Shown here: positions 6,854 through 60,602 of the stretch, one piece after another
Layout: each line of letters opens with the position of its first letter
Position numbering within the stretch: the first letter of the stretch is position 1
Assembly: GCA_964016885.1 (NCBI GenBank)
Contig: OZ024746.1
Span: forward strand, 96,224,001-96,288,000
Source: Eledone cirrhosa
Lineage: Eukaryota
Length of the DNA stretch: 64,000 bases
Reading direction: 5' to 3'
Notes under the pieces: generated by a model
Database searches by the model: none
What the model was told of the DNA's origin: nothing
What the model saw: only the letters and a program-made list of their open reading frames with translations
Position numbers and translations under genes: made by a program

Positions 6854-9800
6854 CCCTTTAGCATTCACATTACTCTATATATACTATTGTATTTTAACAG
6901 TAAAGGCTTTACTTCACATAACATTTACATTACTCTATATATACTATTGTATTTTCACAGTAAAGGCTTTACCTCACAACATTTACATGACTCTATATAT
7001 ACTATTGTATTTTCACAGTAAAGGCTTTACCTCACATAATATCTCACATAATATTTACATTACTCTATATATATTATTGTATTGTCACAGTAAAGGCTTT
7101 ACTTCACATAACATTTATATTACTCTATATATACTATTGTATTTTAACAGTAAAGGCTTTACTTCACATAACATTTACATGACTCTATATATGCTATTGT
7201 ATTTTAACAGTAAAGGCTTTACTTCACTTAACATTTACATTACTCTATATATACTATTGTATTTTAACAGTAAAGGCTTTACTTCACATAACATTTACAT
7301 TACTCTATATATACTATTGTATTTTAACAGTAAAGGCTTTACTTCACATAACATTTACATGACTCTATATATACTATTGTATTTTAACAGTAAAGGTTTT
7401 ACTTCACATAACATTTACATTACTCTATATATACTATTGTATTGTCACAGTAAAGGCTTTACTTCACATAACATTTATATTACTCTATATATACTATTGT
7501 ATTTTAACAGTAAAGGCTTTACTTCACATAACATTTACATGACTCTATATATACTATTGTATTTTAACAGTAAAGGCTTTACTTCACATAACATTTATAT
7601 TACTCTATATATACTATTGTATTTTAACAGTAAAAGCTTTACTTCACATAACATTTACATTACTCTATATATACTATTGTATTTTAACAGTAAAGGCTTT
7701 ACTTCACATAACATTTACATTACTCTATATATACTATTGTATTTTAACAGTAAAGACTTTACTTCACATAACATTTACATTACTCTATATATACTATTGT
7801 ATTTTAACAGTAAAGGCTTTACTTCACATAACATTTACATGACTCTATATATACTATTGTATTTTAACAGTAAAGGCTTTACTTCACTTAACATTTACAT
7901 TACTCTATATATACTATTGTATTTTAACAGTAAAGGCTTTACTTCACATAACATTTACATTACTCTATATATACTATTGTATTTTAACAGTAAAGGCTAT
8001 ACTTCACATAACATTTACATGACTTTATATATACTATTGTATTTTAACAGTAAAGGTTTTACTTCACATAACATTTACATTACTCTATATATACTATTGT
8101 ATTGTCACAGTAAAGGCTTTACTTCACATAACATTTATATTACTCTATATATACTATTGTATTTTAACAGTAAAGGCTTTACTTCACATAACATTTACAT
8201 GACTCTATATATACTATTGTATTTTAACAGTAAAGGCTTTACTTCACATAACATTTATATTACTCTATATATACTATTGTATTTTAACAGTAAAAGCTTT
8301 ACTTCACATAACATTTACATTACTCTATATATACTATTGTATTTTAACAGTAAAGGCTTTACTTCACATAACATTTACATTACTCTATATATACTATTGT
8401 ATTTTAACAGTAAAAGCTTTACTTCACATAACATTTACATTACTCTATATATACTATTGTATTTTAACAGTAAAGGCTTTACTTCACATAACATTTACAT
8501 TACTCTATATATACTATTGTATTTTAACAGTAAAGGCTTTACTTCACATAACATTTACATTACTCTATATATACTATTGTATTTTAACAGTAAAGGCTTT
8601 ACCTCACATAACATTTACATGACTCTATATATACTATTGTATTTTCACAGTAAAGGCTTTACTTCACATAACATTTACATGACTCTATATATACTATTGT
8701 ATTTTCACAGTAAAGGCTTTATATCACATAACATTTACATTACTCTATATATACTATTGTATTTTAACAGTAAAGGCTTTACCTCACATAACATTTACAT
8801 TACTCTATATATACTATTGTATTTTAACAGTAAAGGCTTTACCTCACATAACATTTACATTACTCTATATATACTATTGTATTTTAACAGTAAAGGCTTT
8901 ACCTCACATAACATTTACATTACTCTATATATACTATTGTATTTTAACAGTAAAGGCTTTACCTCACATAACATTTACATGACTCTATATATACTATTGT
9001 ATTTTCACAGTAAAGGCTTTACCTCACATAACATTTACATGACTCTATATATACTATTGTATTTTCACAGTAAAGGCTTTACCTCACATAACATTTACAT
9101 TACTCTATATATACTATTGTATTTTCACAGTAAAGGCTTTACCTCACATAACATTTACATTACTCTATATATACTATTGTATTTTAACAGTAAAGACTTT
9201 ACCTCACATAACATTTACATGACTCTATATATACTATTGTATTTTCACAGTAAAGGCTTTACCTCACATAACATTTACATGACTCTATATATACTATTGT
9301 ATTTTCACAGTAAAGGCTTTACCTCACATAACATTTACATTACTCTATATATACTATTGTATTTTAACAGTAAAGGCTTTACCTCACATAACATTTACAT
9401 TACTCTATATATACTATTGTATTTTAACAGTAAAGGCTTTACCTCACATAACATTTACATTACTCTATATATACTATTGTATTTTAACAGTAAAGGCTTT
9501 ACCTCACATAACATTTACATTACTCTATATATACTATTGTATTTTAACAGTAAAGGCTATACTTCACATAACATTTACATGACTCTATATATACTATTGT
9601 ATTTTCACAGTAAAGGCTTTACTTCACATAACATTTACATTACTCTATATATACTATTGTATTTTAACAGTAAAGGCTATACTTCACATAACATTTACAT
9701 GACTCTATATATACTATTGTATTTTCACAGTAAAGGCTTTACTTCACATAACATTTACATTACTCTATATATACTATTGTATTTTAACAGTAAAGGCTTT

Positions 9801-10310
9801 ACTTCACATAACATTTACATGACTCTATATATACTATTGTATTTTCACAGTAAAGGCTTTACTTCACATAACATTTACATTACTCTATATATACTATTGT
9901 ATTTTCACAGTAAAGGCTTTACTTCACATAACATTTACATTACTCTATATATACTATTGTATTTTCACAGTAAAGGCTTTACTTCACATAACATTTACAT
10001 TACTCTATATATACTATTGTATTTTCACAGTAAAGGCATTACTTCACATAACATTTACATGACTCTATATATACTATTGTATTTTAACAGTAAAGGCTTT
10101 ACTTCACATAACATTTACATTACTCTATATATACTATTGTATTTTCACAGTAAAGGCTTTACTTCAAATAATTACTCATAATATCGAATCTATAAGATTT
10201 TTATATTATTCATTTTGAAAACACGTCAGTATGAGTGGCCGGTTGCAGCTAGTTTAAAGAGAGAGGTGAAAGAATTCTGGACGGATACGGCCGGTTTAAA
10301 TGCTAAAAGG
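6854..10310 (+). repeat. 60-bp satellite (about 55 units) inside a family A piggyBac-like MITE
   Basis: Exact 60-bp periodicity. The block starts ttaa|CCCTTTAGCATT and ends AATGCTAAAAGG|ttaa. Confidence 0.93.
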
Positions 10311-18843: not shown

Positions 18844-19003
18844 ATTCATCAAAGGCTTCATATACCGTAGACACCCAACGTGTGAAGAAAATCGAGACTT
18901 TGTTCAATATACTAAATATAATTATCTTCTAAGATTGAAAACAAAACTGCCAAAATCTGTTTTAGATAAATCCTGGCCACCATGTCCAGAACTACTACAA
19001 GAG
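18844..19003 (+). CDS. MYO1C: Myosin-IC-like exon, IQ3/post-IQ: FIKGFIYRRHPTCEENRDF...LPKSVLDKSWPPCPELLQE
   Basis: ttctag/gtaagg splice sites. Resembles the MYO1C segment IRGF..RH.P.C.EN...LPQNVLDTSWP. 160 nt, phase 2 to 0. Confidence 0.94.
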
Positions 19004-21875: not shown

Positions 21876-23943
21876 AGCACTGCAGTACTACAGCACTACA
21901 GTACTACAGTACTACAGTACTACAGCACTACAGTACTACAGCACTACAGTACTACAGCACTACAGTACTACAGCACTACAGCACTACAGCACTACAGCAC
22001 TACAGTACTACAGTACTGCAGTACTACAGCACTACAGTACTACAGCACTACAGTACTACAGCACTACAGCACTACAGTACTACAGTACTACAGCACTACA
22101 GTACTACAGCACTACAGCACTACAGTACTACAGTACTACAGCACTACAGCACTACAGTACTACAGCACTACAGCACTACAGTACTACAGTACTGCAGTAC
22201 TACAGCACTACAGCACTACAGTACTACAGCACTACAGCACTGCAGTACTACAGCACTACAGTACTACAGCACTACAGTACTACAGCACTACAGTACTGCA
22301 GTACTACAGTACTACAGTACTGCAGTACTACAGCACTACAGCACTACAGTACTACGGCACTACAGTACTACAGCACTACAGTACTGCAGTACTACAGTAC
22401 TGCAGTACTACAGCACTACAGTACTGCAGTACTACAGCACTACAGTACTACAGCACTACAGTACTACAGTACTACAGTACTGCAGTACTACAGCACTGCA
22501 GTACTGCAGTACTGCAGTACTACAGTACTACAGTACTACAGCACTACAGTACTGCAGCACTACAGCACTACAGTACTACAGCACTGCAGTACTGCAGTAC
22601 TACAGCACTACAGTACTGCAGTACTACAGCACTACAGTACTACAGCACTACAGCACTACAGCACTACAGCACTACAGCACTACAGTACTACAGCACTACA
22701 GTACTGCAGCACTACAGTACTACAGCACTACAGTACTACAGCACTACAGCACTACAGTACTACAGCACTACAGTACTGCAGCACTACAGTACTGCAGTAC
22801 TACAGTACTACAGCACTACAGTACTACAGCACTACAGTACTACAGCACTGCAGTACTACAGTACTACAGCACTACAGCACTACAGTACTGCAGCACTACA
22901 GCACTACAGTACTGCAGTACTACAGTACTGCAGTACAGCACTACAGTACTACAGCACTACAGCACTACAGTACTACAGCACTACAACACTACAGCACTAC
23001 AACACTACAGCACTGCAGTACTACAGTACTACAGCACTACAACACTACAGCACTGCAGTACTACAGCACTACAGTACTACAGCACTGCAGTACTGCAGTA
23101 CTACAGCACTGCAGTACTACAGTACTACAGCACTACAGCACTACAGTATAACAGTACTATAGTACTACAATACTACAGTACAACAGCACTACAGTACTAC
23201 AGCACTACAGTACAACAGCACTACAGCACTACAGTACTACAATACTACAGCACTACAGTACTACAGTACTACAGTATAACAGTACTACAGTACAACAGCA
23301 CTACAGCATTACAGCACTACAGTACTACAGCACTACAGTACTACAGCACTACAGCACTACAGTACAACAGCACTACAGTACAACAGCACTACAGTACAAC
23401 AGCACTACAGTATAACAGCACTACAGCATTACAGTACTACAGCACTACAGCATTACAGTATAACAGCACTACAGTACTACAGTACTACAGTACTACAGCA
23501 CTACAGCATTACAGTACTACAGCACTACAGCATTACAGTATAACAGCACTACAGTACTACAGTACTACAGTACTACAGCACTACAGTACAACAGCACTAC
23601 AGTACAACAGCACTACAGTACAACAGCACTACAGTATAACAGCACTACAGTACTACAGCACTACAGCACTACAGTACAACAGCACTACAGCATTACAGTT
23701 CTACAGCACTACAGTACTACAGCATTACAGTTCTACAGCACTACAGCACTACAGTACTACAGCATTACAGTATAACAGCACTACAGTACTACAATACTAC
23801 AGCACTACAGTACTACAGCACTACAGTACAACAGCACTACAGTACAACAGCACTACAGTACAACAGCACTACAGTACAACAGCACTACAGCATTACAGTA
23901 CTACAGCACTACAGCACTACAGGACTACAGTACTACAGCACTA
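21876..23943. repeat. 8-bp minisatellite (CAGTACTA/CAGCACTA)n
   Basis: About 2.07 kb of 8-bp units with variants. Confidence 0.95.
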
Positions 23944-29617: not shown

Positions 29618-29759
29618 TACGCCACTGCTGTTACCAAGTATGATCGTCATGGTTACAAGCCTCGGAACCGTATCCTCATAGTTACAGACCAAGCTCTTTA
29701 TGTGTTGAATGAAAAAGATTTCAAAGTTAAAGACAAAATAACTTTCATGCAACTAAAAC
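29618..29759 (+). CDS. MYO1C: Myosin-IC-like exon, TH1/PH beta1-beta2: YATAVTKYDRHGYKPRNRILIVTDQALYVLNEKDFKVKDKITFMQLK
   Basis: ttgtag/gtaagt splice sites. Carries the KYDRxGYKPRxR phosphoinositide-binding signature of Myo1c. 142 nt, phase 0 to 1. Confidence 0.95.
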
Positions 29760-32550: not shown

Positions 32551-32624
32551 GTGTAATAACCAGCTCTTTGACAGATGGTATCTTTGTTGCTATAGTAATA
32601 CCATCTGAGGAAAATGGAACCAAG
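32551..32624 (+). CDS. MYO1C: Myosin-IC-like exon, TH1: RVITSSLTDGIFVAIVIPSEENGTK
   Basis: acatag/gtaaat splice sites. SSLxDxxFV motif of TH1. 74 nt, phase 1 to 0. Confidence 0.92.
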
Positions 32625-34223
32625 GTAAATGAATTTGTTGTTTAACCCTTTACAGTTTACATTACTGTATATTTACTTTTGTTTTTTCATCGTAAACACT
32701 TTATTTCACATAATTATCTCACATAATATCGAATCTATGAGGTTTTGATATTATTTATTTTGAGAACAATACCTTAACATAAGTTTGAGCAGCCAGTTAC
32801 AGCCGGTTTGAACAGAAAGAGGTGAGAGAATTCTGACCAGATACGGCTAGTTTAAATGCTAAAGGGTTAGATGTATTTGTTATGGATCTTATAATACTGT
32901 ATTTGAGAATGATAATTAGAAATTGCATGACTTAACCCTTTCATGGCTATATTTCTAATGAAATACATTTAGTTTCAATTAATTAATGAAGAATTTTTAA
33001 GGATTTATTAAAATTATTAATTATTTTATTACTAAAATAGTAGGCCTGGAGCAATTCTTGAGTACTTCTCATATTTTCATCACACATACACACACATTAA
33101 ATTCTTCAACTAAAGTCAGAACCCAAACTGATTTTTTCCAAATCAAATTCTACTAACTTTCAACTTAATAATAAAAAAAAAAGAAATTAATATTTAACTG
33201 TTGAAATCTAATACTATCTATTATGTAGTAATGAAATTTCAGTCTAGAATTTTAATTTTAATTTGAACACCTTAATAGAGTTGGTTTCAGTTGTGTTTGT
33301 GTTTAGAGCATTAATTTTAAAGTTTATTCAATTTGCTCACCACATTGTGATATTAGTTCACATCTGTAATTATTTTACTTATCTCTAAAAATCTAGACAT
33401 TTTACGGTGAGTAAGAAATCACAAATAAAATATATATAATTTGATTCAGAACTAGAAATATATTTTAAATCTTGTAGACATTTTATGGTGGGTAAAAATA
33501 AAATATATATAATTTGATTCACAACTCAATATGGTGGATATATATTTTAAATTTTGGAGACACAGACATTTATTATTTCATTAAATAATTGTAATTATTT
33601 TACTTGTTGATTATCTTTTCCACATTTCAAGTGTAGTATCACAAAAAATATGATTGAATGTGCCTGTGCCTCTTAATATTTTATCATTTCTTCTCCAAAA
33701 TTGCTAATTCCCATCATTTTATTTCATTTTAAATCATGAACTGTAGTTTTAATAACAATTTGTTTGATTAAAATAAATGCATATTGGTTGAATGTGTTTT
33801 TTTTTTCTTTCTTCTTAGTTATTTGTTTCTAGATTAAGTTATGCTGCATAGTTCTTCTTGTTTACAAAGTACTAATGGTATAACAGTAACTAATATTTTA
33901 TTAGTAACTAATAAAATATTAATTTCTTACTAACATATAAATCTAACTAATATCTAAAAACAAGTTTGTTAATCCAAATGTTTACAGTACTTCTGGACAG
34001 GTCTTTGTGAAAATTTGTAGTGAGTGCTTGCTATTTTGTACTTTTCAAGAATATCTTACTAATGTGTTTTCATGCAATACAGAACATTAATAATTAATCA
34101 TCTTGCAATTTTGTTAAAAGGACTGCATTCATTTTTTTTTTCTCTGCTGTTCCATTCTTTTCATATGGCATGTTATTTAAACTAACAATTTATTTATTTC
34201 CCCCTTCCATTTTGCTATCTCAG

Positions 34224-34259
34224 TCTGGAGGTGAGGATGATGATCCTGATTATGATAAG
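34224..34259 (+). CDS. Candidate alternative 36-nt cassette exon: SGGEDDDPDYDK
   Basis: ACTAAC branch point, pyrimidine tract and ctcag acceptor; AAG|gtaaca donor. Symmetric phase 0 to 0 with no stop, inside a phase-0 intron. It is a purine/G-rich island in AT-rich unique sequence. Confidence 0.6.
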
Positions 34260-37200
34260 GTAACACACATACCCTTCATGGAAACAATTCTTCCCTTTAT
34301 AAACTTTGTAATGATTCTCATTGACCATTTCTTCAAATTAGCATGACTCAACTTTCTTTGCAACTTCATCGCTTCCAACAGATGTTGTCTTTTTTTACCT
34401 TATTTTCCTTCTGTATATTCTATTGAAGTTTTGCTGCTAGCAAGAAATTATTCCATGTATTTCATATTAACCTCTTCAGTGCCACGGACGAGATAGCTCA
34501 ACCTAACATGTTCAAACTCTTTTCCAACAGTTCATAACTTCAAAGTTATGAAATCGTTTCCAACAGTTCATAACTTCAAAGTTATGAACTCATTTCCAAA
34601 AGTTCATAACTTTAAAGCTAGATGGGGTTACTAGTTTATTGATGTGTTGTTAATAAATGTTTGTTTTAAAAAATAGTCATTTTATTGAAAAAAAAAACCA
34701 GCACAGCAACTAAAACTGTAAAATATACACGGCAGTCAACAGGTTAATTACATCTTGGAGGAAGGAGTCATTTCAGTTATTCAAAAAGCACACAAAAACC
34801 GTTAAATTTATTTTGTATTTATCATTATTTTTTGGTGTCAAAATTTTCATTGCGCTGAAGTTCTGTGGCAATAACCAGATGGCAAAAAATGTGATGAAAG
34901 TTTTCACACCAAGGCATAAATGGTAAATATAAAGAGAATTTAACAGTTTATGTATATTTTTGAATGGTTAAGATGAATCTTTTGTGATGTAATTGTTTTA
35001 GTTTCAACACTTCTTCTTCGTCCACTTATTCCTGAGAGGGTCGTGGGGGCAGAGTCCTCAAACACTGCTTCCAGTGGGTCCTGTCAGAAGCTACCATTTC
35101 CAACTGATCCAGCTGGATCCCCAAGCAAGACCAGCCAAGCTCATGGATGTTATCCAACCATCTTGTTCGGGGTCTACCCTTATATCTCCTGTCGTCTGGT
35201 TTTGCCTGTAAAATCTGTCCAGTAATTCTTTCCTGAGACATTTCTACCACATGTCCATAGTATCGGAGCTGTGATCTCTCAATTCAGAGAAGTAGCAGCT
35301 CTACCAGTCTCAAATCAAATCATTTATCAAACAAGTACAAATCCTGTATTTCTACTGTTTTATAACTAAAACTAAATCTAATATCTCCCATCACATAAGA
35401 CTTAGTATTTATATCTCAATATAATTGCCAATTTAAAGGTAGTAGTTTGGCAGTATTGGTAGAAGAACATTGGATAAAATGCAGTATTTGTTCTGGCTTT
35501 GTACATTCTGAGTTCAAATCCCATCAAGGTTAATTTTGCCATTCATTTTTCCAGGGTCGATAAAATAAAGTAACCGTCAAGTACTGGGTTTGATTTAATC
35601 AACTTTTACTGTCCCCCAAATTTGCTGGCCTTGTGCCTAAATTAGAAATCAATATGATTATCAGTTTAGAACACGCATTAACCTCTTCAGTGCCGTAGAC
35701 GAGATAACTTATCCTAATATGTTTGAACTCTTTTCCAACAGTTCATAACTTCAAAGCTAGATGGGGTTACTAGTTTATTGATGTGATGTTTGTCAATCAT
35801 TCAGATATGTGTTGTTAATAAATGTTTGTTTAAAAAAATAGTCATTTCACTGAAAAAAAAACCCAGCAGTCAACAGGTTAAATATTCAAAAGGTTCTGGC
35901 TAAGAAATCATTCCAAGAATATTTCAGTTTCTCTTGGGATCTTCTTACATTGATATGTCATCTTACTATGCTAGAATTTGAACATGGAAGAAATTGTCTT
36001 AAGAACATATATTCAACTGAATATCAAATGCTACATTATAATCTTTACAATACTTTTATTACAATACTTTGTATGGTTTCTGCTGAAAACACAATACCAT
36101 TATCTGAATATATAATCATGACCATTACTTTACCAGTCTATATCTCTGACTCCACAATGATTAGTTTTCAAGTACATAAAATCATTTATTTAACTTGCTT
36201 GGAATATATAACTGGTTAGTTACAAGCTAGCATGGTTTCTATGAAATATCAGCTCCAATTCCAAATAATTTAGAGAGTGTACTGAGTATATTTTATCTCT
36301 ACGGATATACATGATAAAATATATCCAGTATGCTCTGTAGTATGCTTGACATTAGGTTGAATGTCCAGCAGTAGAAATCATGCCAAAATTTGAATATATG
36401 TCAGCAAGATGTAGCTCCCAGCCTGTCTAGGAGTACAGTAGCTCTGATTAAGTACTGTCTTGGTCTGTAATGGCTCCCAGCCTGTCTAGGAGTACAGTAG
36501 CTCTGATTAAGTACCGTCTTTGTCTGTAATGACCCATCCAACCCAAGCAGGCTTGGAAAAACAAATATAGAATAATGATGATGATGATTATAACAACGAT
36601 GACAACTCTGCTTCCTTCAATTGCATCATCTCTTTATGATGGGACGTCTACATGGCAGAGTTTAGAGTTGTACCAGATGGTGTACCAACTGGTGTCTGGA
36701 CCAACTGGTCAACTGTGATCTTAGTTCATTCTCCAAATGGATTGATAGGCTGACCACACAAAAAGCACGTACCAGTATTACTTATCAACAGGACATTTAC
36801 AACATACAGTAGTTACGACAAACAGTAGTCACAACATATATTGGCTGCATCTCGGTTTCAAGAATTTCCCTTCCTTGACCTTTTTCTCATACATGGGTGG
36901 TGCCAAGGACTTAGATTTCTTTCTGGATAACCTGCAATGAAAGAAAAAGAAAAGGCTATGCTTACGCAACACATGTGAAAGTCGTTTAGATCAAGTGATA
37001 CCTGTGTTTGAAGCTTTTTTAAGTGATGGAAGGCCTTGCACTGGAGCAGTCCCACTCTATAACAATGGTAACAGGTATTCAAAAAGAACAACAGATCAAC
37101 ATCATTGGCTGCCATCGAGTCACAGGTTTTACATCAGAATTTTCCTTCTCTTAGAATGATGTCCTAACAAGAACTAAGGGTTTCTCACTCCCGGTGGGCT

Positions 37201-38564: not shown

Positions 38565-41500
38565 GTGTCATATTATCATTAGATGATACATATGTGTAAA
38601 ATACTGATCAGAGAACTTCCATTTTATTAAACAATACTGAAGTGTACCTGTGTCATATTGTTGATAGATGATATATAAGTGTAAAATACTGACCAGAGAA
38701 CTTCTATTTTATTAAACAATACTGAAGTGTACCTGTGTCATATTGTTGATAGATGATATATATGTGTAAAATAATGACCAAAGGACTTCCATTTTATTAA
38801 ACAATACTGAAGTGTACCTGTGTCATATTGTTGATAGATGATATATAAGTGTAAAATACTGATCAGAGAACTTCCATTTTATTAAACAATACTGAAGTGT
38901 ACCTGTGTCATGTTGTTGATAGATGATATATATGTGTAAAATAATGACCAAAGGAATTCCATTTTATTAAACAATACTGAAGTGTACCTGTGTCATATTG
39001 TTGATAGATGATATATAAGTGTAAAATACTGACCAGAGAACTTCTATTTTATTAAACAATACTGAAGTGTACCTGTGTCATATTGTTGATAGATGATATA
39101 TATGTGTAAAATAATGACCAAAGGACTTCCATTTTATTAAACAATACTGAAGTGTACCTGTGTCATATTGTTGATAGATGATATATAAGTGTAAAATACT
39201 GATCAGAGAACTTCCATTTTATTAAACAATACTGAAGTGTACCTGTGTCATATTGTTGATAGATGATATATAAGTGTAAAATACTGATCAGAGAACTTCC
39301 ATTTTATTAAACAATACTGAAGTGTACCTGTGTCATATTGTTGATAGATGATATATAAGTGTAAAATACTGATCAGAGAACTTCCATTTTATTAAACAAT
39401 ACTGAAGTGTACCTGTGTCATATTGTTGATAGATGATATATAAGTGTAAAATACTGATCAGAGAACTTCTATTTTATTAAACAATACTGAAGTGTACCTG
39501 TGTCATATTGTTGATAGATGATATATATGTGTAAAATAATGACCAAAGGACTTCCATTTTATTAAACAATACTGAAGTGTACCTGTGTCATATTGTTGAT
39601 AGATGATATATAAGTGTAAAATACTGATCAGAGAACTTCCATTTTATTAAACAATACTGAAGTGTACCTGTGTCATATTGTTGATAGATGATATATAAGT
39701 GTAAAATATTGATCAGAGAACTTCCATTTTATTAAACAATACTGAAGTGTACCTGTGTCATATTGTTGATAGATGATATATAAGTGTAAAATACTGATCA
39801 GAGAACTTCCATTTTATTAAACAATACTGAAGTGTACCTGTGTCATATTGTTGATAGATGATATATAAGTGTAAAATACTGATCAGAGAACTTCCATTTT
39901 ATTAAACAATACTGAAGTGTACCTGTGTCATATTGTTGATAGATGATATATAAGTGTAAAATACTGATCAGAGAACTTCCATTTTATTAAACAATACTGA
40001 AGTGTACCTGTGTCATATTGTTGATAGATGATATATAAGTGTAAAATACTGATCAGAGAACTTCCATTTTATTAAACAATACTGAAGTGTACCTGTGTCA
40101 TATTGTTGATAGATGATATATAAGTGTAAAATACTGATCAGAGAACTTCCATTTTATTAAACAATACTGAAGTGTACCTGTGTCATATTGTTGATAGATG
40201 ATATATATGTGTAAAATACTGATCAGAGAACTTCCATTTTATTAAACAATACTGAAGTGTACCTGTGTCATATTGTTGATAGATGATATATAAGTGTAAA
40301 ATATTGATCAGAGAACTTCCATTTTATTAAACAATACTGAAGTGTACCTTTGTCATATTGTTGATAGATGATATATAAGTGTAAAATACTGATCAGAGAA
40401 CTTCCATTTTATTAAACAATACTGAAGTGTACCTGTGTCATATTGTTGATAGATGATATATAAGTGTAAAATACTGATCAGAGAACTTCCATTTTATTAA
40501 ACAATACTGAAGTGTACCTTTGTCATATTGTTGATAGATGATATATAAGTGTAAAATACTGATCAGAGAACTTCCATTTTATTAAACAATACTGAAGTGT
40601 ACCTGTGTCATATTGTTGATAGATGATATATAAGTGTAAAATACTGATCAGAGAACTTCCATTTTATTAAACAATACTGAAGTGTACCTGTGTCATATTG
40701 TTGATAGATGATATATAAGTGTAAAATATTGATCAGAGAACTTCCATTTTATTAAACAATACTGAAGTGTACCTGTGTCATATTGTTGATAGATGATATA
40801 TAAGTGTAAAATACTGATCAGAGAACTTCCATTTTATTAAACAATACTGAAGTGTACCTGTGTCATATTGTTGATAGATGATATATAAGTGTAAAATACT
40901 GATCAGAGAACTTCCATTTTATTAAACAATACTGAAGTGTACCTGTGTCATATTGTTGATAGATGATATATAAGTGTAAAATACTGATCAGAGAACTTCC
41001 ATTTTATTAAACAATACTGAAGTGTACCTGTGTCATATTGTTGATAGATGATATATAAGTGTAAAATACTGATCAGAGAACTTCCATTTTATTAAACAAT
41101 ACTGAAGTGTACCTGTGTCATATTGTTGATAGATGATATATATGTGTAAAATACTGATCAGAGAACTTCCATTTTATTAAACAATACTGAAGTGTACCTG
41201 TGTCATATTGTTGATAGATGATATATAAGTGTAAAATATTGATCAGAGAACTTCCATTTTATTAAACAATACTGAAGTGTACCTTTGTCATATTGTTGAT
41301 AGATGATATATAAGTGTAAAATACTGATCAGAGAACTTCCATTTTATTAAACAATACTGAAGTGTACCTTTGTCATATTGTTGATAGATGATATATAAGT
41401 GTAAAATATTGATCAGAGAACTTCCATTTTATTAAACAATACTGAAGTGTACCTGTGTCATATTGTTGATAGATGATATATAAGTGTAAAATATTGATCA

Positions 41501-43550
41501 GAGAACTTCCATTTTATTAAACAATACTGAAGTGTACCTGTGTCATATTGTTGATAGATGATATATAAGTGTAAAATACTGATCAGAGAACTTCCATTTT
41601 ATTAAACAATACTGAAGTGTACCTGTGTCATATTGTTGATAGATGATATATAAGTGTAAAATACTGACCAGAGGACTTCCATTTTATTAAACAATACTGA
41701 AGTGTACCTGTGTCATATTGTTGATAGATGATATATAAGTGTAAAATACTGATCAGAGAACTTCCATTTTATTAAACAATACTGAAGTGTACCTGTGTCA
41801 TATTGTTGATAGATGATATATAAGTGTAAAATATTGATCAGAGAACTTCCATTTTATTAAACAATACTGAAGTGTACCTGTGTCATATTGTTGATAGATG
41901 ATATATAAGTGTAAAATACTGATCAGAGAACTTCCATTTTATTAAACAATACTGAAGTGTACCTGTGTCATATTGTTGATAGATGATATATAAGTGTAAA
42001 ATACTGATCAGAGAACTTCCATTTTATTAAACAATACTGAAGTGTACCTGTGTCATATTGTTGATAGATGATATATATGTGTAAAATAATGATCAGAGAA
42101 CTTCCATTTTATTAAACAATACTGAAGTGTACCTGTGTCATATTGTTGATAGATGATATATAAGTGTAAAATATTGATCAGAGAACTTCCATTTTATTAA
42201 ACAATACTGAAGTGTACCTGTGTCATATTGTTGATAGATGATATATAAGTGTAAAATACTGATCAGAGAACTTCCATTTTATTAAACAATACTGAAGTGT
42301 ACCTGTGTCATATTGTTGATAGATGATATATAAGTGTAAAATACTGATCAGAGAACTTCCATTTTATTAAACAATACTGAAGTGTACCTGTGTCATATTG
42401 TTGATAGATGATATATAAGTGTAAAATACTGATCAGAGAACTTCCATTTTATTAAACAATACTGAAGTGTACCTGTGTCATATTGTTGATAGATGATATA
42501 TAAGTGTAAAATACTGATCAGAGAACTTCCATTTTATTAAACAATACTGAAGTGTACCTGTGTCATATTGTTGATAGATGATATATAAGTGTAAAATACT
42601 GATCAGAGAACTTCCATTTTATTAAACAATACTGAAGTGTACCTGTGTCATATTGTTGATAGATGATATATAAGTGTAAAATACTGATCAGAGAACTTCC
42701 ATTTTATTAAACAATACTGAAGTGTACCTGTGTCATATTGTTGATAGATGATATATAAGTGTAAAATACTGATCAGAGAACTTCCATTTTATTAAACAAT
42801 ACTGAAGTGTACCTGTGTCATATTGTTGATAGATGATATATAAGTGTAAAATACTGATCAGAGAACTTCCATTTTATTAAACAATACTGAAGTGTACCTG
42901 TGTCATATTGTTGATAGATGATATATATGTGTAAAATACTGATCAGAGAACTTCCATTTTATTAAACAATACTGAAGTGTACCTGTGTCATATTGTTGAT
43001 AGATGATATATAAGTGTAAAATACTGATCAGAGAACTTCCATTTTATTAAACAATACTGAAGTGTACCTGTGTCATATTGTTGATAGATGATATATAAGT
43101 GTAAAATACTGATCAGAGAACTTCCATTTTATTAAACAATACTGAAGTGTACCTGTGTCATATTGTTGATAGATGATATATATGTGTAAAATACTGATCA
43201 GAGAACTTCCATTTTATTAAACAATACTGAAGTGTACCTGTGTCATATTGTTGATAGATGATATATAAGTGTAAAATATTGATCAGAGAACTTCCATTTT
43301 ATTAAACAATACTGAAGTGTACCTGTGTCATATTGTTGATAGATGATATATAAGTGTAAAATACTGATCAGAGAACTTCCATTTTATTAAACAATACTGA
43401 AGTGTACCTGTGTCATATTGTTGATAGATGATATATATGTGTAAAATAATGACCAAAGGACTTCCATTTTATTAAACAATACTGAAGTGTACCTGTGTCA
43501 TATTGTTGATAGATGATATATAAGTGTAAAATACTGATCAGAGAACTTCC
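38565..43550. repeat. 85-bp satellite, about 58 copies
   Basis: Phase recurs every 1020 bp, which is 12 x 85. Confidence 0.95.
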
Positions 43551-44342
43551 AGACAGAGATGAAAATACAGACAGACTGCTGCCATGTAACCATAGTCCTC
43601 CTCTCTCTCTCTCTCATTATCTCTATATAACCACTTCTCCCTCATTCTCTCTATATATATTTCTTCTTATCTACCTCTCTCTGTCTCTCTCCACTTGTCC
43701 TCCCTCACCTTCTATCTATGTATCTCTCTTCCTGTCTCTCTTTCTCTCTCAATTCTACTTTCTTAGATTTTTTTCTTAGATTTTTTACATTTGTTTGTTT
43801 TCACAGCAAGGCTTATACTTTAAAACATTAAATGTATCTTATGTGTATGTGTGTATATATATATATCTGTGTGTTTTTTCTTTTTGAAGCAAGAGATTCC
43901 TAGTCTTCATTAAAACATCTCTCTAGGAGAAAGTCACTCTGATATAAAATCTGCGACTTCATTTGCATCCAATGATGTAGACCAGTTCTTCTTTTTGGGC
44001 AAATGCATTCGATGTTCAGAGAGTGGGATTGGCCTCCACACTTAAAAAAGCTTCAAGCACAGGCATCACTTGATATGTGACATTTTTTGCGAAGTATGAT
44101 ATTGCTGGCCAATGGCAAGTCCCTAGCTGGACGAAAAAACCAAATCCGTGATGTTCATGCTTAAGTATCAAGCGATGGCATTACTAAAAACTGAGTTGCA
44201 GTCATTATATCTGTGTGTATGTAGTAGCAATTGGGATGAGAGGTCACCAATTGTAGCAGTTGTTAGGAAGATTGCTCTCTCTCTCCCATATAAAGCTCTG
44301 TGTGAATGTTTGATATGCATGGCTAATGAATTGTGTGTGTTT

Positions 44343-47300
44343 CCATAGCCAGTAGTTGAGTCTCAGTGAGTCATTGTGTGGTTCTCCATAGCCAATAGTT
44401 GAGCCTCAGTGAGTCATGTTGTGTGGTTCTACATAGCCAGTAGTTGAGTCTCAGTGAGTCATTGTGTGGTTCTCCATAGCCAATAGTTGAGCCTCAGTGA
44501 GTCATGTTGTGTGGTTCTCCATAGCCAGTAGTTGAATCTCAGTGAGTCATGTTGTGTGGTTCTCCATAGCCAGTAGTTGAGCCTCAGTGAGTCATGTTGT
44601 GTGGTTCTCCATAGCCAGTAGTTGAATCTCAGTGAGTCATGTTGTGTGGTTCTCCATAGCCAGTAGTTGAATCTCAGTGAGTCATGTTGTGTGGTTCTCC
44701 ATAGCCAGTAGTTGAGCCTCGGTGAGTCATGTTGTGTGGTTCTCCATAGCCAATAGTTGAGCCTCAGTGAGTCATGTTGTGTGGTTCTCCATAGCCAGGA
44801 GTTGAGTCTCAGTGAGTCATGTTGTGTGGTTCTCCATAGCCAGTAGTTGAGCCTCGGTGAGTCATGTTGTGTGGTTCTCCATAGCCAGTAGTTGAGTCTC
44901 AGTGAGTCATGTTGTGTGGTTCTCCATAGCCAGTAGTTGAGCCTCAGTGAGTCATGTTGTGTGGTTCTCCATAGCCAATAGTTGAGCCTCAGTGAGTCAT
45001 GTTGTGTGGTTCTCCATAGCCAGGAGTTGAGTCTCAGTGAGTCATGTTGTGTGGTTCTCCATAGCCAGGAGTTGAGTCTCAGTGAGTCATGTTGTGTGGT
45101 TCTCCATAGCCAATAGTTGAGCCTCGGTGAGTCATGTTGTGTGGTTCTCCATAGCCAGTAGTTGAATCTCAGTGAGTCATGTTGTGTGGTTCTCCATAGC
45201 CAGTAGTTGAATCTCAGTGAGTCATGTTGTGTGGTTCTCCATAGCCAGTAGTTGAGTCTCAGTGAGTCATGTTGTCTGGTTCTCCATAGCCAGTAGTTGA
45301 GCCTCGGTGAGTCATGTTGTGTGGTTCTCCATAGCCAGCAGTTGAGTCTCAGTGAGTCATGTTGTGTGGTTCTCCATAGCCAGTAGTTGAGCCTCAGTGA
45401 GTCATGTTGTGTGGTTCTCCATAGCCAGGAGTTGAGTCTCAGTGAGTCATGTTGTGTGGTTCTCCATAGCCAGGAGTTGAGCCTCAGTGAGTCATGATGT
45501 GTGGTTCTCCATAGCCAGTAGTTGAGTCTCAGTGAGTCATGTTGTGTGGTTCTCCATAGCCAGTAGTTGAGCCTCGGTGAGTCATGTTGTGTGGTTCTCC
45601 ATAGCCAGCAGTTGAGTCTCAGTGAGTCATGTTGTGTGGTTCTCCATAGCCAGTAGTTGAGCCTCAGTGAGTCATGTTGTGTGGTTCTCCATAGCCAGGA
45701 GTTGAGTCTCAGTGAGTCATGTTGTGTGGTTCTCCATAGCCAGGAGTTGAGCCTCAGTGAGTCATGATGTGTGGTTCTCCATAGCCAGTAGTTGAGTCTC
45801 AGTGAGTCATGTTGTGTGGTTCTCCATAGCCAGCAGTTGAGTCTCAGTGAGTCATGTTGTGTGGTTCTCCATAGCCAGCAGATGAGTCTCAGTGAGTCAT
45901 GTTGTGTGGTTCTCCATAGCCAGGAGTTGAGTCTCAGTGAGTCATGTGTGGTTCTCCATAGCCAGTAGTTGAGCCTCAGTGAGTCATGTTGTGTGGTTCT
46001 CCATAGCCAGGAGTTGAGCCTCAGTGAGTCATGATGTGTGGTTCTCCATAGCCAGTAGTTGAGCCTCAGTGAGTCATGTTGTGTGGTTCTCCATAGCCAG
46101 GAGTTGAGTCTCAGTGAGTCATGTTGTGTGGTTCTCCATAGCCAGTAGTTGAGTCTCAGTGAGTCATGTTGTGTGGTTCTCCATAGCAAGTAGTTGAGTC
46201 TCAGTCAGTTGTGATGTGTGGTTCTCCATAGCCAGTAGTTGAGTCTCAGTGAGTCATGTTGTGTGGTTCTCCAAAGCAAGTAGTTGAGCCTCAGTGAGTC
46301 ATGTTGTGTGGTTCTCCATAGCCAGTAGTTGAGTCTCAGTGAGTCATGATGTGTGGTTCTCCATAGCCAGTAGTTGAGTCTCAGTGAGTCATGTTGTGTG
46401 GTTCTCCATAGCAAGTAGTTGAGCCTCAGTGAGTCATGTTGTGTGGTTCTCCATAGCAAGTAGTTGAGCCTCAGTGAGTCATGTTGTGTGGTTCTCCATA
46501 GCCAGCAGTTGAGTCTCAGTGAGTCATGTTGTGTGGTTCTCCATAGCCAGCAGTTGAGTCTCAGTGAGTCATTATGTGTGGTTCTCCATAGCCAGCAGTT
46601 GAGTCTCAGTGAGTCATGTTGTGTGGTTCTCCATAGCCAGTAGTTGAGTCTCAGTGAGTCATGTTGTGTGGTTCTCCATAGCCAGCAGTTGAGTCTCAGT
46701 GAGTCATGTTGTGTGGTTCTCCATGGCCAGTAGTTGAGTCTCAGTGAGTCATGTTGTGTGGTTCTCCATAGCCAGCAGTTGAGTCTCAGTGAGTCATGTT
46801 GTGTGGTTCTCCATAGCCAGTAGTTGAGTCTCAGTGAGTCATGTTGTGTGGTTCTCCATAGCAAGTAGTTGAGCCTCAGTGAGTCATGTTGTGTGGTTCT
46901 CCATAGCCAGTAGTTGAGTCTCAGTGAGTCATGTTGTGTGGTTCTCCATAGCCAGGAGTTGAGCCTCAGTGAGTCATGTTGTGTGGTTCTCCATAGCCAG
47001 TAGTTGAGTCTCAGTGAGTCATGTTGTGTGGTTCTCCATAGCCAGGAGTTGAGCCTCAGTGAGTCATTATGTGTGGTTCTCCATAGCCAGTAGTTGAGTC
47101 TCAGTGAGTCATGTTGTGTGGTTCTCCATAGCCAGGAGTTGAGCCTCAGTGAGTCATGATGTGTGTTTCTCCATAGCCAGTAGTTGAGTCTCAGTGAGTC
47201 ATGATGTGTGGTTCTCCATAGCCAGTAGTTGAGTCTCAGTGAGTCATGTTGTGTGGTTCTCCATAGCCAGTAGTTGAGCCTCAGTGAGTCATGATGTGTG

Positions 47301-48528
47301 GTTCTCCATAGCCAGTAGTTGAGCCTCAGTGAGTCATGTTGTGTGGTTCTCCATAGCCAGTAGATGAGTCTCAGTGAGTCATGTTGTGTGGTTCTCCATA
47401 GCCAGGAGTTGAGCCTCAGTGAGTCATGATGTGTGGTTCTCCATAGCCAGAAGTTGAGCCTCAGTGAGTCATGTTGTGTGGTTCTCCATAGCCAGTAGTT
47501 GAGTCTCAGTGAGTCATGTTGTGTGGTTCTCCATAGCCAGTAGTTGAGCCTCGGTGAGTCATGTTCTGTGGTTCTCCTTAGCCAGTAGTTGAGTCTCAGT
47601 GAGTCATGTTGTGTGGTTCTCCATAGCCAGGAGTTGAGTCTCAGTGAGTCATGTTGTGTGGTTCTCCATAGCAAGTAGTTGAGCCTCAGTGAGTCATGTT
47701 GTGTGGTTCTCCATAGCCAGTAGTTGAGCCTCAGTGAGTCATGTTGTGTGGTTCTCCATAGCCAGTAGTTGAGTCTCAGTGAGTCATGTTGTGTGGTTCT
47801 CCATAGCCAGGAGTTGAGCCTCAGTGAGTCATGATGTGTGGTTCTCCATAGCCAGTAGTTGAGCCTCAGTGAGTCATGTTGTGTGGTTCTCCATAGCCAG
47901 GAGTTGAGCCTCAGTGAGTCATGTTGTGTGGTTCTCCATAGCCATGAGTTGAGCCTCAGTGAGTCATGTTGTGTGGTTCTCCATAGCCAGGAGTTGAGCC
48001 CCAGTGAGTCATGTGTGGTTCTCCATAGCCAATAGTTGAGCCTCAGTGAGTCATGTGTGGTTCTCCATATCCAGTAGTTGAGCCTCAGTGAGTCATGTGT
48101 GGTTCTCCATAGCCAGTAGTTGAGTCTCAGTGAGTCATTATGTGAGGTTCTCCATAGCCAGTAGTTGAGTCTCAGTGAGTCATTATGTGAGGTTCTCCAT
48201 AGCCAGTAGTTGAGTCTCAGTGAGTCATTATGTGAGGTTCTCCATAGCCAGTAGTTGAGTCTCAGTGAGTCATGTTGTGTGGTTCTCCATAGCAAGTAGT
48301 TGAGTCTCAGTGAGTTGTGATGTGTGGTTCTCCATAGCCAGTAGTTGAGCCTCAGTGAGTCATGATGTGTGGTTCTCCATAGCCAATAGTTGAGCCTCAG
48401 TGAGTCATGATGTGTGGTTCTCCATAGCCAATAGTTGAGCCTCAGTGAGTCGTGATGTGTGGTTCTCCATAGACAGTAGTTGAGTCTCAGTGAGTTGTGA
48501 TGTGTGGTTCCCTATAGCCAGTAGTTGA
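44343..48528. repeat. 45-bp satellite, about 93 copies
   Basis: Unit CCATAGCCAGTAGTTGAGTCTCAGTGAGTCATGTTGTGTGGTTCT. Confidence 0.95.
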
Positions 48529-51604: not shown

Positions 51605-53052
51605 AAAGTGGCAGTGTTACTGCCATGGTAAAATACACCCAGTACACTCGGCAAAGTAGTAGTGTTACTGCCATGGTAAAATACACCCAGTACACTCGGC
51701 AAAGTAGTAGTGTTACTGCCACAGTAAAATACACCCAGTACACTCGGCAAAGTAGTAGTGTTACTGCCACAGTAAAATACACCCAGTACACTCGGCAAAG
51801 TAGTAGTGTTACTGCCACAGTAAAATACACCCAGTACACTCGGCAAAGTAGTAGTGTTACTGCCACAGTAAAATACACCCAGTACACTCGGTAAAGTAGT
51901 AGTGTTACTGCCATGGTAAAATACACCCAGTACACTCGGCAAAGTAGTAGTGTTACTGCCACAGTAAAATACACCCAGTACACTCGGCAAAGTAGTAGTG
52001 TTACTGCCACAGTAAAATACACCCAGTACACTCGGTAAAGTAGTAGTGTTACTGCCACAGTAAAATACACCCAGTACACTCGGCAAAGTAGTAGTGTTAC
52101 TGCCACAGTAAAATACACCCAGTACACTCGGCAAAGTAGTAGTGTTACTGCCATGGTAAAATACACCCAGTACACTCGGCAAAGTAGTAGTGTTACTGCC
52201 ACAGTAAAATACACCCAGTACACTCGGCAAAGTAGTAGTGTTACTGCCACAGTAAAATACACCCAGTACACTCGGCAAAGTAGTAGTGTTACTGCCACAG
52301 TAAAATACACCCAGTACACTCGGCAAAGTAGTAGTGTTACTGCCACAGTAAAATACACCCAGTACACTCGGTAAAGTAGTAGTGTTACTGCCATGGTAAA
52401 ATACACCCAGTACACTCGGCAAAGTAGTAGTGTTACTGCCATGGTAAAATACACCCAGTACACTCGGCAAAGTAGTAGTGTTACTGCCACAGTAAAATAC
52501 ACCCAGTACACTCGGCAAAGTAGTAGTGTTACTGCCACAGTAAAATACATCCAGTACACTCGGTAAAGTAGTAGTGTTACTGCCACAGTAAAATACACCC
52601 AGTACACTCGGTAAAATAGTAGTGTTACTGCCATGGTAAAATACACCCAGTACACTCGGCAAAGTAGTAGTGTTACTGCCACAGTAAAATACACCCAGTA
52701 CACTCGGCAAAGTAGTAGTGTTACTGCCACAGTAAAATACACCCAGTACACTCGGTAAAGTAGTAGTGTTACTGCCATGGTAAAATACACCCAGTACACT
52801 CGGCAAAGTAGTAGTGTTACTGCCACAGTAAAATACACCCAGTACACTCGGCAAAGTAGTAGTGTTACTGCCACAGTAAAATACACCCAGTACACTCGGC
52901 AAAGTAGTAGTGTTACTGCCACAGTAAAATACACCCAGTACACTCGGTAAAGTAGTAGTGTTACTGCCACAGTAAAATACACCCAGTACACTCGGTAAAG
53001 TAGTAGTGTTACTGCCACAGTAAAATACACCCAGTACACTCGGTAAAGTGGT
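51605..53052. repeat. 48-bp satellite (about 30 copies) derived from a dispersed repeat motif
   Basis: The unit contains TAAAATACACCCAGTACACTCGG(C/T)AAAGT(A/G)GT. The same motif forms short arrays at 19040-19322, 24627-24892 and 26745-26882. Confidence 0.93.
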
Positions 53053-56737: not shown

Positions 56738-56838
56738 GGTGACTTAATACTACACAGTAACTATCTGATCGAAGCTCTAACCAAAATTGCAGTAGCTACT
56801 AACAAATCTAGCCTTGTGACAGTCGCCAAAGGAAATAG
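56738..56838 (+). CDS. MYO1C: Myosin-IC-like exon, TH1: GDLILHSNYLIEALTKIAVATNKSSLVTVAKGN
   Basis: ctactag/gtaaga splice sites. GDxxL...IExLTK motif. 101 nt, phase 0 to 2. Confidence 0.94.
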
Positions 56839-58430: not shown

Positions 58431-58530
58431 TATCACACATGATGTATCAAGTGGTAAACAAGGAAACATTCAGTTCTCCAAAGGACCTGTATATTCTGTG
58501 AAGAAAAATAAAGCAGGAGGCCTTATTGTT
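58431..58530 (+). CDS. MYO1C: Myosin-IC-like exon: SITHDVSSGKQGNIQFSKGPVYSVKKNKAGGLIV
   Basis: ttatag/gtaagt splice sites. Resembles the MYO1C/Myo61F C-terminal beta region. 100 nt, phase 2 to 0. Confidence 0.92.
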
Positions 58531-60581: not shown

Positions 60582-60602
60582 GTTGCTCCAAAATTACAGT
60601 GA
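60582..60602 (+). CDS. MYO1C: Myosin-IC-like terminal coding exon: VAPKLQ*
   Basis: gttttcag acceptor. Resembles the MYO1C terminus VAPRLNSR*. TGA at 60600-60602. Confidence 0.88.
   Translation, partial: VAPKLQ

What the first reader, a model, noticed from the sequence alone, without database searches (positions are those of the whole stretch)
33860..34350. Candidate regulated acidic micro-cassette exon in the lipid-binding PH loop of myosin-IC
Seen: a 36-nt, frame-preserving, stop-free exon (SGGEDDDPDYDK, 34224-34259) between NGTK and GDLIL. It sits in a largely TE-free stretch. Seven ACTAAY motifs lie upstream (33871, 33889, 33907, 33929, 33946, 34058, 34181). A TGC lies about 11 nt before the acceptor, and GCATG occurs on both sides (34168, 34341). 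Known: ACUAAY is bound by QKI/How/SF1, GCAUG by Rbfox, and a UGC near the 3' splice site marks SRRM3/4-type neural microexons. The basic TH1/PH domain of Myo1c binds PIP2. As I recall, vertebrate MYO1C has no such insert. Inference: a tissue-specific isoform with six acidic residues and a Tyr in acidic context could tune membrane binding or add a phosphosite.
Basis: partly seen in the sequence, partly recalled or inferred. Interest (0 to 1): 0.75.

Follow-up and report, generated by a model that had tools for sequence, protein, structure and literature searches.

The report
Ancient optional exon in myosin-1c tail
This octopus myosin-1c gene has a real optional 36-base exon, with counterparts at the same spot in snails, clams, oysters and shrimp, that adds an acidic loop to the membrane-binding tail; it is likely switched on in neurons and would likely weaken or retune membrane binding, neither of which is shown.

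Summary
The exon is real and alternatively spliced. All coordinates and motifs match. RefSeq Octopus bimaculoides and O. sinensis carry isoforms differing by exactly SGGEDDDPDYDK. A spliced contig from this species shows the skip junction 32624->56738; inclusion was not seen in that one run. Optional inserts of 8-13 residues at the same K|GDLIL site occur in gastropods, bivalves and malacostracan crustaceans, and none in the vertebrate, insect or cnidarian proteins retrieved. The host intron is shared with arthropods. The insert lies in the disordered beta6-beta7 loop of the PH domain, not in the K892/R903 lipid-binding strands. The 3' splice site has the eMIC/SRRM3-4 anatomy (about 100-nt AG-free zone, CTAAC at -42, TGC at -11), and eMIC and QKI genes exist in the genome. 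Corrections: the stretch is not repeat-free, 36 nt exceeds the 27-nt microexon limit, the Tyr is cephalopod-only, and strong acidity is limited to cephalopods and gastropods. Tissue pattern and lipid effect are untested. New member of a known kind.

The parts
29618..29759 (+). Constitutive Myo1c exon, PH strands beta1-beta4, with the K892/R903-equivalent residues (KYDRHGYKPRNR; K891/R902 in O. bimaculoides numbering)
   Evidence: PF06017 hit, 98% to P0001, junctions
32551..32624 (+). Upstream constitutive exon (beta5-beta6, ends ...EENGTK), donor AAG|GTAAAT
   Evidence: covered by the spliced contig of run X4
33871..33951 (+). Array of five ACTAAY motifs spaced 17-22 nt (-353 to -278); candidate QKI/How sites (inferred); 33885-33927 folds as an AT-rich hairpin
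33949..34097 (.). Decayed dispersed repeat between the array and the exon; holds the sixth ACTAAT (34058)
   Evidence: raised DNA depth
34121..34221 (+). AG exclusion zone of about 100 nt (22-42 nt at 8 other acceptors of the gene)
34168..34172 (+). GCATG, possible Rbfox core site upstream (weak)
34181..34186 (+). ACTAAC at -43: likely branch point and possible SF1/QKI competition site
   Evidence: PMC13004596 abstract
34213..34215 (+). TGC at -11, eMIC/SRRM3-4-type motif between pyrimidine tract and AG
   Evidence: 0 of 8 other acceptors have TGC within 20 nt
34224..34259 (+). 36-nt cassette exon, SGGEDDDPDYDK, phase 0-0, in the PH beta6-beta7 loop
34224..34230 (+). 7-nt short form through an internal donor GAG|GTGAGG; predicted to give ...NGTKSGG-stop
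   Evidence: matches the older RefSeq O. bimaculoides isoform X3, P0126, 958 aa
34341..34345 (+). GCATG, possible Rbfox core site downstream (weak)
56738..56838 (+). Downstream constitutive exon (beta7 and C-terminal helix, starts GDLIL)
   Evidence: joined directly to 32624 in run X4
58431..58530 (+). Penultimate coding exon
60582..60602 (+). Last coding exon to the stop codon (VAPKLQ*)

Best explanation
It is a real, conserved, alternatively spliced 36-nt cassette exon of octopod myosin-Ic that adds twelve residues (net charge -5) to the predicted-disordered beta6-beta7 loop of the tail PH domain; it is likely included in neurons by the eMIC (Srrm234) splicing factor, likely kept out elsewhere with help from QKI/How at the upstream ACUAAY sites, and would likely weaken or retune the tail's binding to anionic membranes. 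Shown: exon, frame, both isoforms in relatives, the skip junction in this species, position in the loop, the splice-site anatomy and the presence of both regulator genes. Inferred: neural inclusion (about 0.6), eMIC dependence (about 0.55), QKI repression (about 0.45), and the membrane effect in cephalopods and gastropods (about 0.4). That the exon is real and alternative: about 0.97.
For: Isoform pairs differing by exactly this peptide: O. bimaculoides 1040/1028 aa, O. sinensis 1040/1028, and an unnamed cluster sister to octopods 1037/1025. Peptide 12 of 12 identical to O. bimaculoides, O. sinensis and Argonauta while the flanking exons are 79% and 88% identical to O. bimaculoides; 11 of 12 in the sister cluster. 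Skip junction in a 3996-nt spliced contig of run X4, depth 80. 3' splice-site features listed for fly eMIC exons in PMC8797185 section 10 are present: AG-free zone about 100 nt versus 22-42 at 8 other acceptors, CTAAC at -42, TGC at -11; only 2 of 2225 YAG sites on the + strand of the window meet all three (thresholds set after seeing the exon). An eMIC coding region split over two exons on C22 and a QKI-like STAR gene on C9. QKI represses exons with ACUAA branch sites (PMC13004596 abstract). AF2 model of P0001: residues 950-966 pLDDT under 50 between strands 942-947 and 970-973. Acidic residues in the PH core rise from 10 to 16 with inclusion. A long beta6-beta7 loop closes the canonical lipid site in ARHGEF9 (PMC4704004 passage).
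Against: No tissue-labelled expression data; no inclusion junction seen in this species (one RNA-like run, unlabelled). In the sister cluster's main species inclusion forms stand on 69 contigs and skip forms on 56, high for a neuron-only exon unless sampling is brain-heavy. Bivalves also show inclusion isoforms, although their bulk samples hold little nerve tissue (own knowledge). Clam and shrimp inserts are near neutral (net -1 to +1) and oyster inserts -2 to -3, so acidity is not a general property of the site. The main PIP2 residues lie in beta1-beta2, outside the insert. One ACTAAY lies in a repeat and two in a hairpin. Flanking-intron conservation could not be checked.
Confidence: 0.45

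Rival explanations
1. The cassette is regulated but not neural: it is included in muscle or another non-neural tissue under Rbfox/QKI control.
For: GCATG on both sides; inclusion forms on more than half of the contigs of the sister-cluster species (69 versus 56); inclusion isoforms in bivalves; flies have many muscle exons independent of eMIC (PMC8797185 passage).
Against: All ACTAAY motifs are upstream, the position where QKI represses (PMC13004596 abstract); the long AG-free zone plus TGC plus CTAAC is described as largely unique to eMIC-dependent exons; GCATG enrichment is weak.
Confidence: 0.2
2. Inclusion is regulated as in the best explanation, but the loop acts as a protein-docking or phosphorylation segment (Tyr in DPDYD, or the first Ser in a CK2-like S-x-x-E context) rather than as a lipid-affinity switch.
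For: Strict peptide identity among cephalopods, more than a charge patch needs; exposed disordered loop; near-neutral inserts in clams and shrimp cannot act by charge. Kinase motif names are recalled, not tested.
Against: No Tyr in 18 of the 22 inserts tabulated (all non-cephalopod ones); sequences and lengths (8-13 aa) diverge between classes, so no single partner motif is shared.
Confidence: 0.25
3. The loop simply tolerates insertions, and the exon is a near-neutral by-product that arose several times in a permissive intron.
For: Insert sequences of molluscan classes and crustaceans are not alignable with confidence; distant class-I myosins also vary in this loop; no insert found for Mytilus, Mya, the chiton or insects.
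Against: 12 of 12 and 11 of 12 identity across cephalopods, above the flanking exons; all inserts keep frame; both isoforms are kept in 15 tabulated pairs; regulatory motifs beyond chance.
Confidence: 0.07
4. The main role is to lower Myo1c output: use of the internal donor gives a 7-nt exon, a stop after SGG, and decay or a tail-truncated motor.
For: Internal donor GAG|GTGAGG matches the consensus at 7 of 9 positions against 6 of 9 for the real donor; the predicted product equals an older RefSeq isoform (P0126, 958 aa).
Against: That isoform is held only from the older annotation (EukProt), not among the current NCBI entries listed; full-length inclusion is a common assembled form in the sister cluster.
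Confidence: 0.03

Closest known systems
eMIC/SRRM3-4-dependent neural short exons (Drosophila Srrm234 programme, PMC8797185; mammalian SRRM3/4 microexons, bioRxiv 10.1101/2024.09.17.613571)
   Same: Short frame-preserving cassette (fly median 31 nt); long AG exclusion zone, UGC near the acceptor, CUAAY branch point; regulator gene present in this genome.
   Different: 36 nt is above the 27-nt microexon limit; flanking introns are long (1.6 and 22.5 kb) unlike fly targets; an upstream array of ACUAAY motifs; neural inclusion and eMIC dependence not shown; Myo61F does not occur in the main text of the fly paper.
Cytohesin-1/2 PH-domain microexon (diglycine/triglycine switch, PMC6314551)
   Same: An optional small exon inside a PH domain, proposed to change phosphoinositide binding and localisation.
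   Different: Cytohesin adds one Gly (3 nt) with measured PIP2/PIP3 selectivity, in the beta1-beta2 loop (position recalled); here 12 residues go into beta6-beta7 and no binding has been measured.
QKI-repressed, SF1-activated exons with ACUAA branch sites (RAI14 exon 11, PMC13004596)
   Same: ACUAAC at the likely branch point with further ACUAAY motifs upstream.
   Different: RAI14 has two tandem branch-like sites; here one at -43 and six more at -166 to -353; shown in mammalian cells only.
Vertebrate MYO1C isoforms (N-terminal extensions; PMC7948490, abstract start only)
   Same: Same gene family, alternative isoforms; PH K/R residues conserved.
   Different: Vertebrate isoforms differ at the N-terminus; no vertebrate protein retrieved has an insert in this loop (mouse 4R8G alignment).
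Recurrent ('type I convergent') neural exons in one intron position (bioRxiv 10.64898/2026.09.05.749416)
   Same: Different short exons at the same intron position of orthologous genes in molluscs and arthropods.
   Different: Myosin/Myo1 is not mentioned in its main text; whether this site is one ancient exon or several origins is unresolved.

Membership tests
Myosin-Ic (Myo1c/Myo61F) orthologue | TH1/PH tail with KYD..R basic motif and grouping with named Myo1c proteins | tested here: met
   PF06017; 83% to O. bimaculoides myosin-Ic; K891/R902; 4R8G best PDB match for the tail; tree of 46 relatives, no paralog outgroup beyond MYO1H
Alternative cassette exon | Isoforms with and without exactly this exon | tested here: met
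   RefSeq pairs in two Octopus species and Logan pairs; skip junction in this species; inclusion in this species not seen in the one RNA-like run
Microexon (3-27 nt definition, PMC6314551 passage) | Length of 27 nt or less | tested here: not met
   36 nt; counterparts in clams (24 nt) and shrimp (24-27 nt, deduced from protein length) would meet it
eMIC/SRRM3-4-dependent exon | Long AG exclusion zone | tested here: met
   about 100 nt versus 22-42 nt at 8 other acceptors
eMIC/SRRM3-4-dependent exon | UGC between branch point and AG | tested here: met
   TGC at -11; 0 of 8 other acceptors within 20 nt
eMIC/SRRM3-4-dependent exon | Strong CUAAY branch point | tested here: met
   CTAAC at -42; 2 of 8 other acceptors have CTAAY within 100 nt; actual branch use not tested
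eMIC/SRRM3-4-dependent exon | Weak own 5' splice site, stronger upstream one (fly pattern) | tested here: inconclusive
   6 of 9 versus 7 of 9 consensus matches; crude count, no MaxEnt score
eMIC/SRRM3-4-dependent exon | eMIC-bearing regulator encoded in the genome | tested here: met
   PF15230 over cut-off, open two-exon eMIC on C22
eMIC/SRRM3-4-dependent exon | Neural-specific inclusion and loss on eMIC removal | not testable with these tools
   No tissue-labelled runs listed
QKI/How-repressed exon | ACUAAY motifs upstream or at the branch site, beyond chance | tested here: met
   7 versus 0.49 expected, not fully independent; QKI-like gene on C9
QKI/How-repressed exon | Conserved motifs in relatives, QKI binding, de-repression on knockdown | not testable with these tools
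   No cephalopod or mollusc genomic DNA with the cassette was found in the collections
Cytohesin-type PH lipid-specificity switch | Exon lies in the beta1-beta2 headgroup-binding loop | tested here: not met
   Insert lies between beta6 and beta7
Cytohesin-type PH lipid-specificity switch | Isoforms differ in phosphoinositide binding | not testable with these tools
   Needs liposome or ITC assays

The most novel reading that the evidence does not exclude
This is a single protostome-ancestral neural exon, kept in molluscs, malacostracan crustaceans and perhaps centipedes and lost in insects, which in cephalopods and gastropods became an acidic lid over the Myo1c lipid pocket, so that neurons make a motor with different membrane anchoring from all other cells; a nested 7-nt donor adds a built-in off-switch.
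Probability: 0.12. Interest if true: 0.75.

Novelty: new member of a known kind. Interest (0 to 1): 0.42.

Why it matters
Myo1c anchors actin to PIP2-rich membranes through this PH domain, and its described isoforms differ only at the N-terminus. An optional loop at one fixed site of the lipid-binding domain, kept across molluscs and also present in crustaceans, would be a second way to tune a class-I myosin and a clean test case for whether same-intron short exons in distant phyla are ancestral or recurrent. The isoforms are already in automatic RefSeq annotation; what is new here is the cross-phylum pattern, the regulatory anatomy and the nested truncating donor. Without tissue and binding data it remains one more conserved cassette exon.

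Tried and rejected
Sequencing runs: no RNA holder listed by label; run X4 behaved as a spliced assembly and was used for presence of the skip junction only; it gave no cover on the cassette, which is no evidence of absence. Flanking-intron conservation: an exon pattern found 0 matches in metagenome contigs; a protein search returned 16 loci, none closely matching a cephalopod, gastropod or bivalve cassette region. Hidden cassette in insect-like introns: 4 complete introns scanned, no convincing candidate; the only open candidates shared by the two closely related loci were a 3-nt one differing in sequence and a 30-nt one whose frame differs between them. Paralog on C8: has an intron in the same loop at another position; two weak cassette candidates, not followed. 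Profile search of cluster representatives added no named Myo1c with the insert. Fold searches of the full-length model were filled by motor domains and did not test the tail; no coordinates were available to measure loop-to-pocket distance. Literature: 10 full-text searches listed no paper whose title or abstract start concerns this exon; the 2019 eMIC paper that covers octopus is not held. Earlier scan findings: none near, none by words, two unrelated amoeba myosins by sequence. Rejected readings: chance pseudo-exon (relatives express it); constitutive exon (skip form seen in this species); a conserved Tyr phosphosite (cephalopod-only); 'TE-free' flank.
Full report
1. Observation. The window is from a 3.0-Gb animal genome. 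The 36-nt segment 34224-34259 translates to SGGEDDDPDYDK, has a CAG acceptor and a GTAACA donor, and is phase 0 on both sides, between an exon ending ...EENGTK at 32624 and one starting GDLIL at 56738. Seven ACTAAY in the 400 nt upstream compare with 0.49 expected (0 of 5000 dinucleotide shuffles); the cluster is the densest in the window, and 1 of 200 block-shuffled windows reached seven. The motifs are not fully independent: one lies in a decayed dispersed repeat at 33949-34097 whose three other copies inspected lack it, and two lie in one AT-rich hairpin. The flank is therefore not repeat-free. The two GCATG are weak evidence (about 1% of shuffles).

2. The gene. The exon at 18844-19003 is 83% identical to Octopus bimaculoides myosin-Ic; mapping that protein places the neck and tail exons across the window. 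The organism is an octopod other than O. bimaculoides (inference from identity). The tail matches the mouse Myo1c tail structure 4R8G.

3. The exon is real and optional. RefSeq O. bimaculoides X1/X2 (1040/1028 aa) and O. sinensis X1/X2 differ by exactly this peptide; Argonauta carries it; an unnamed transcript-derived cluster, 79-82% identical to the octopods and sister to them in a tree (likely squid or cuttlefish, inferred), has SGGDDDDPDYDK in 3 of 11 members and lacks it in 8. In that cluster's main species inclusion forms stand on 69 contigs and skip forms on 56; these are not tissue-labelled. The window's peptide is 12 of 12 identical to O. bimaculoides while its flanking exons are 79% and 88% identical. 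In this species, run X4 holds a 3996-nt spliced contig (depth 80) that joins 32624 directly to 56738; inclusion was not seen in that single unlabelled run.

4. Depth of the site. Inserts at the same K|GD[LI]IL position occur in Haliotis (12 aa), Patella and Lottia (13), Mercenaria, Ruditapes and Dreissena (8), four oysters (10), Macrobrachium and Palaemon (9), Penaeus (8), Oratosquilla (10) and one Strigamia gene model (11); 15 of the 22 tabulated cases have a matching isoform without it. Of 403 proteins from the homolog and cluster look-ups, 357 had a recognisable site and 36 a long loop; all 36 are molluscs, malacostracans, the centipede or unnamed sequences grouping with molluscs. None of the vertebrate, amphioxus, tunicate, cnidarian, insect or chelicerate proteins had one, nor Mytilus, Mya, Gigantopelta or the chiton; these sets are not complete isoform catalogues. 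Eight of 16 metagenome loci show genomic arthropod-like Myo1c with an intron opening at the same phase-0 position after K, six of them with the GDL acceptor in view, so the host intron is shared by molluscs and arthropods. Insert sequences do not align convincingly between phyla, so one ancient exon and repeated origins both remain open; a 2026 preprint reports that such same-intron recurrence is common for neural exons (bioRxiv 10.64898/2026.09.05.749416; abstract, passages and section 10 read; supplements not seen and may list this exon).

5. Position in the protein. An AlphaFold2 model of the O. bimaculoides inclusion form (25-sequence alignment, mean pLDDT 72.7) shows seven PH strands and a helix; residues 950-966 are low-confidence coil between strand 942-947 (beta6) and 970-973 (beta7) (strand numbering by counting). 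The residue whose mutation abolishes phosphoinositide binding in mammals, K892 (PMC5797967 passages), and R903 (search listing; role recalled) correspond to K891 and R902 in beta1-beta2, outside the insert. Beta7 takes part in the canonical binding mode and a long beta6-beta7 loop closes that site in ARHGEF9 (PMC4704004 passages), so an effect from this loop is plausible. Inclusion raises acidic residues of the PH core from 10 to 16. Net charge is -4 to -5 in cephalopods and gastropods, -2 to -3 in oysters and the centipede, and -1 to +1 in clams and crustaceans; Tyr occurs only in the cephalopod inserts.

6. Regulation. Fly eMIC-dependent exons have median length 31 nt, long AG exclusion zones, UGC near the acceptor and CUAAY branch points, an architecture called largely unique to that programme (PMC8797185 section 10); UGC helps but is not strictly needed in mammals (bioRxiv 10.1101/2024.09.17.613571 passages). 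This exon has an AG-free zone of about 100 nt (22-42 at 8 other acceptors of the gene; a ninth was mis-indexed and dropped), CTAAC at -42 and TGC at -11; 2 of 2225 + strand YAG sites in the window meet all three thresholds, which were set after seeing the exon. The genome encodes an open eMIC region and a QKI-like protein. QKI represses exons by competing with SF1 at ACUAA branch sites (PMC13004596, abstract only). The likely logic is default skipping, reinforced by QKI/How upstream, and eMIC-driven inclusion in neurons. This is inference from motifs; the high share of inclusion contigs in the sister cluster and inclusion in bivalves leave a non-neural pattern open.

7. A third outcome. An internal donor, GAG|GTGAGG after base 34230, would give a 7-nt exon and ...NGTKSGG-stop at the start of the next exon, about 200 nt upstream of the last junction. 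The older RefSeq isoform X3 of O. bimaculoides (P0126, 958 aa) is exactly that protein. It is probably minor and may be degraded by nonsense-mediated decay (inferred; not tested).

8. Comparison and verdict. It works like an eMIC-type short neural exon and, functionally, may resemble the cytohesin PH microexon that changes lipid selectivity (PMC6314551, abstract and passages). It is not a microexon by the 27-nt rule and is not in the cytohesin loop. Ten full-text searches listed no paper on it; an octopus transcriptome paper (PMC9699675 passages) does not mention myosin or microexons in its main text; the 2019 eMIC paper covering octopus could not be read. The isoforms already stand in automatic annotation. 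Verdict: real, conserved, likely regulated; new member of a known kind; interest 0.42.

Noticed in passing
window 34224-34230 / P0126: Internal donor gives a predicted 7-nt truncating form identical to an older O. bimaculoides RefSeq isoform (958 aa).
   Followed up: partly
window 32551-32624: The upstream exon encodes one residue more in the same beta6-beta7 loop (IVIPSEENGTK) than O. bimaculoides (IVTTEENGTK).
   Followed up: no
window 33885-33927: AT-rich hairpin (14-bp perfect stem, TAA loop) holding two ACTAAY motifs; could mask them or be their origin.
   Followed up: partly
window 33949-34097: Old dispersed repeat sits between the five-motif array and the exon; if inserted later, the array once lay about 150 nt closer.
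   Followed up: partly
P0437, P0530, P0537 versus P0516, P0529 (unnamed representatives): Another class-I myosin lineage shows long (about 20-25 aa) and short versions of the same beta6-beta7 loop; the apparent paralog on G000 C8 has an intron in this loop, with no clear cassette.
   Followed up: partly
L022 about 10213-10305: The host intron opens with GC instead of GT in a springtail-like locus.
   Followed up: no
window 6862-10171, 21876-23943, 38580-43551, 44331-48528, 51613-53049: Large intronic tandem arrays (units 60, 16-24, 85, 45 and 48 nt) that give long spurious open frames.
   Followed up: no
G000 C22 (L010, L011): The eMIC coding region of Srrm234 is split over two exons about 21 kb apart.
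   Followed up: partly
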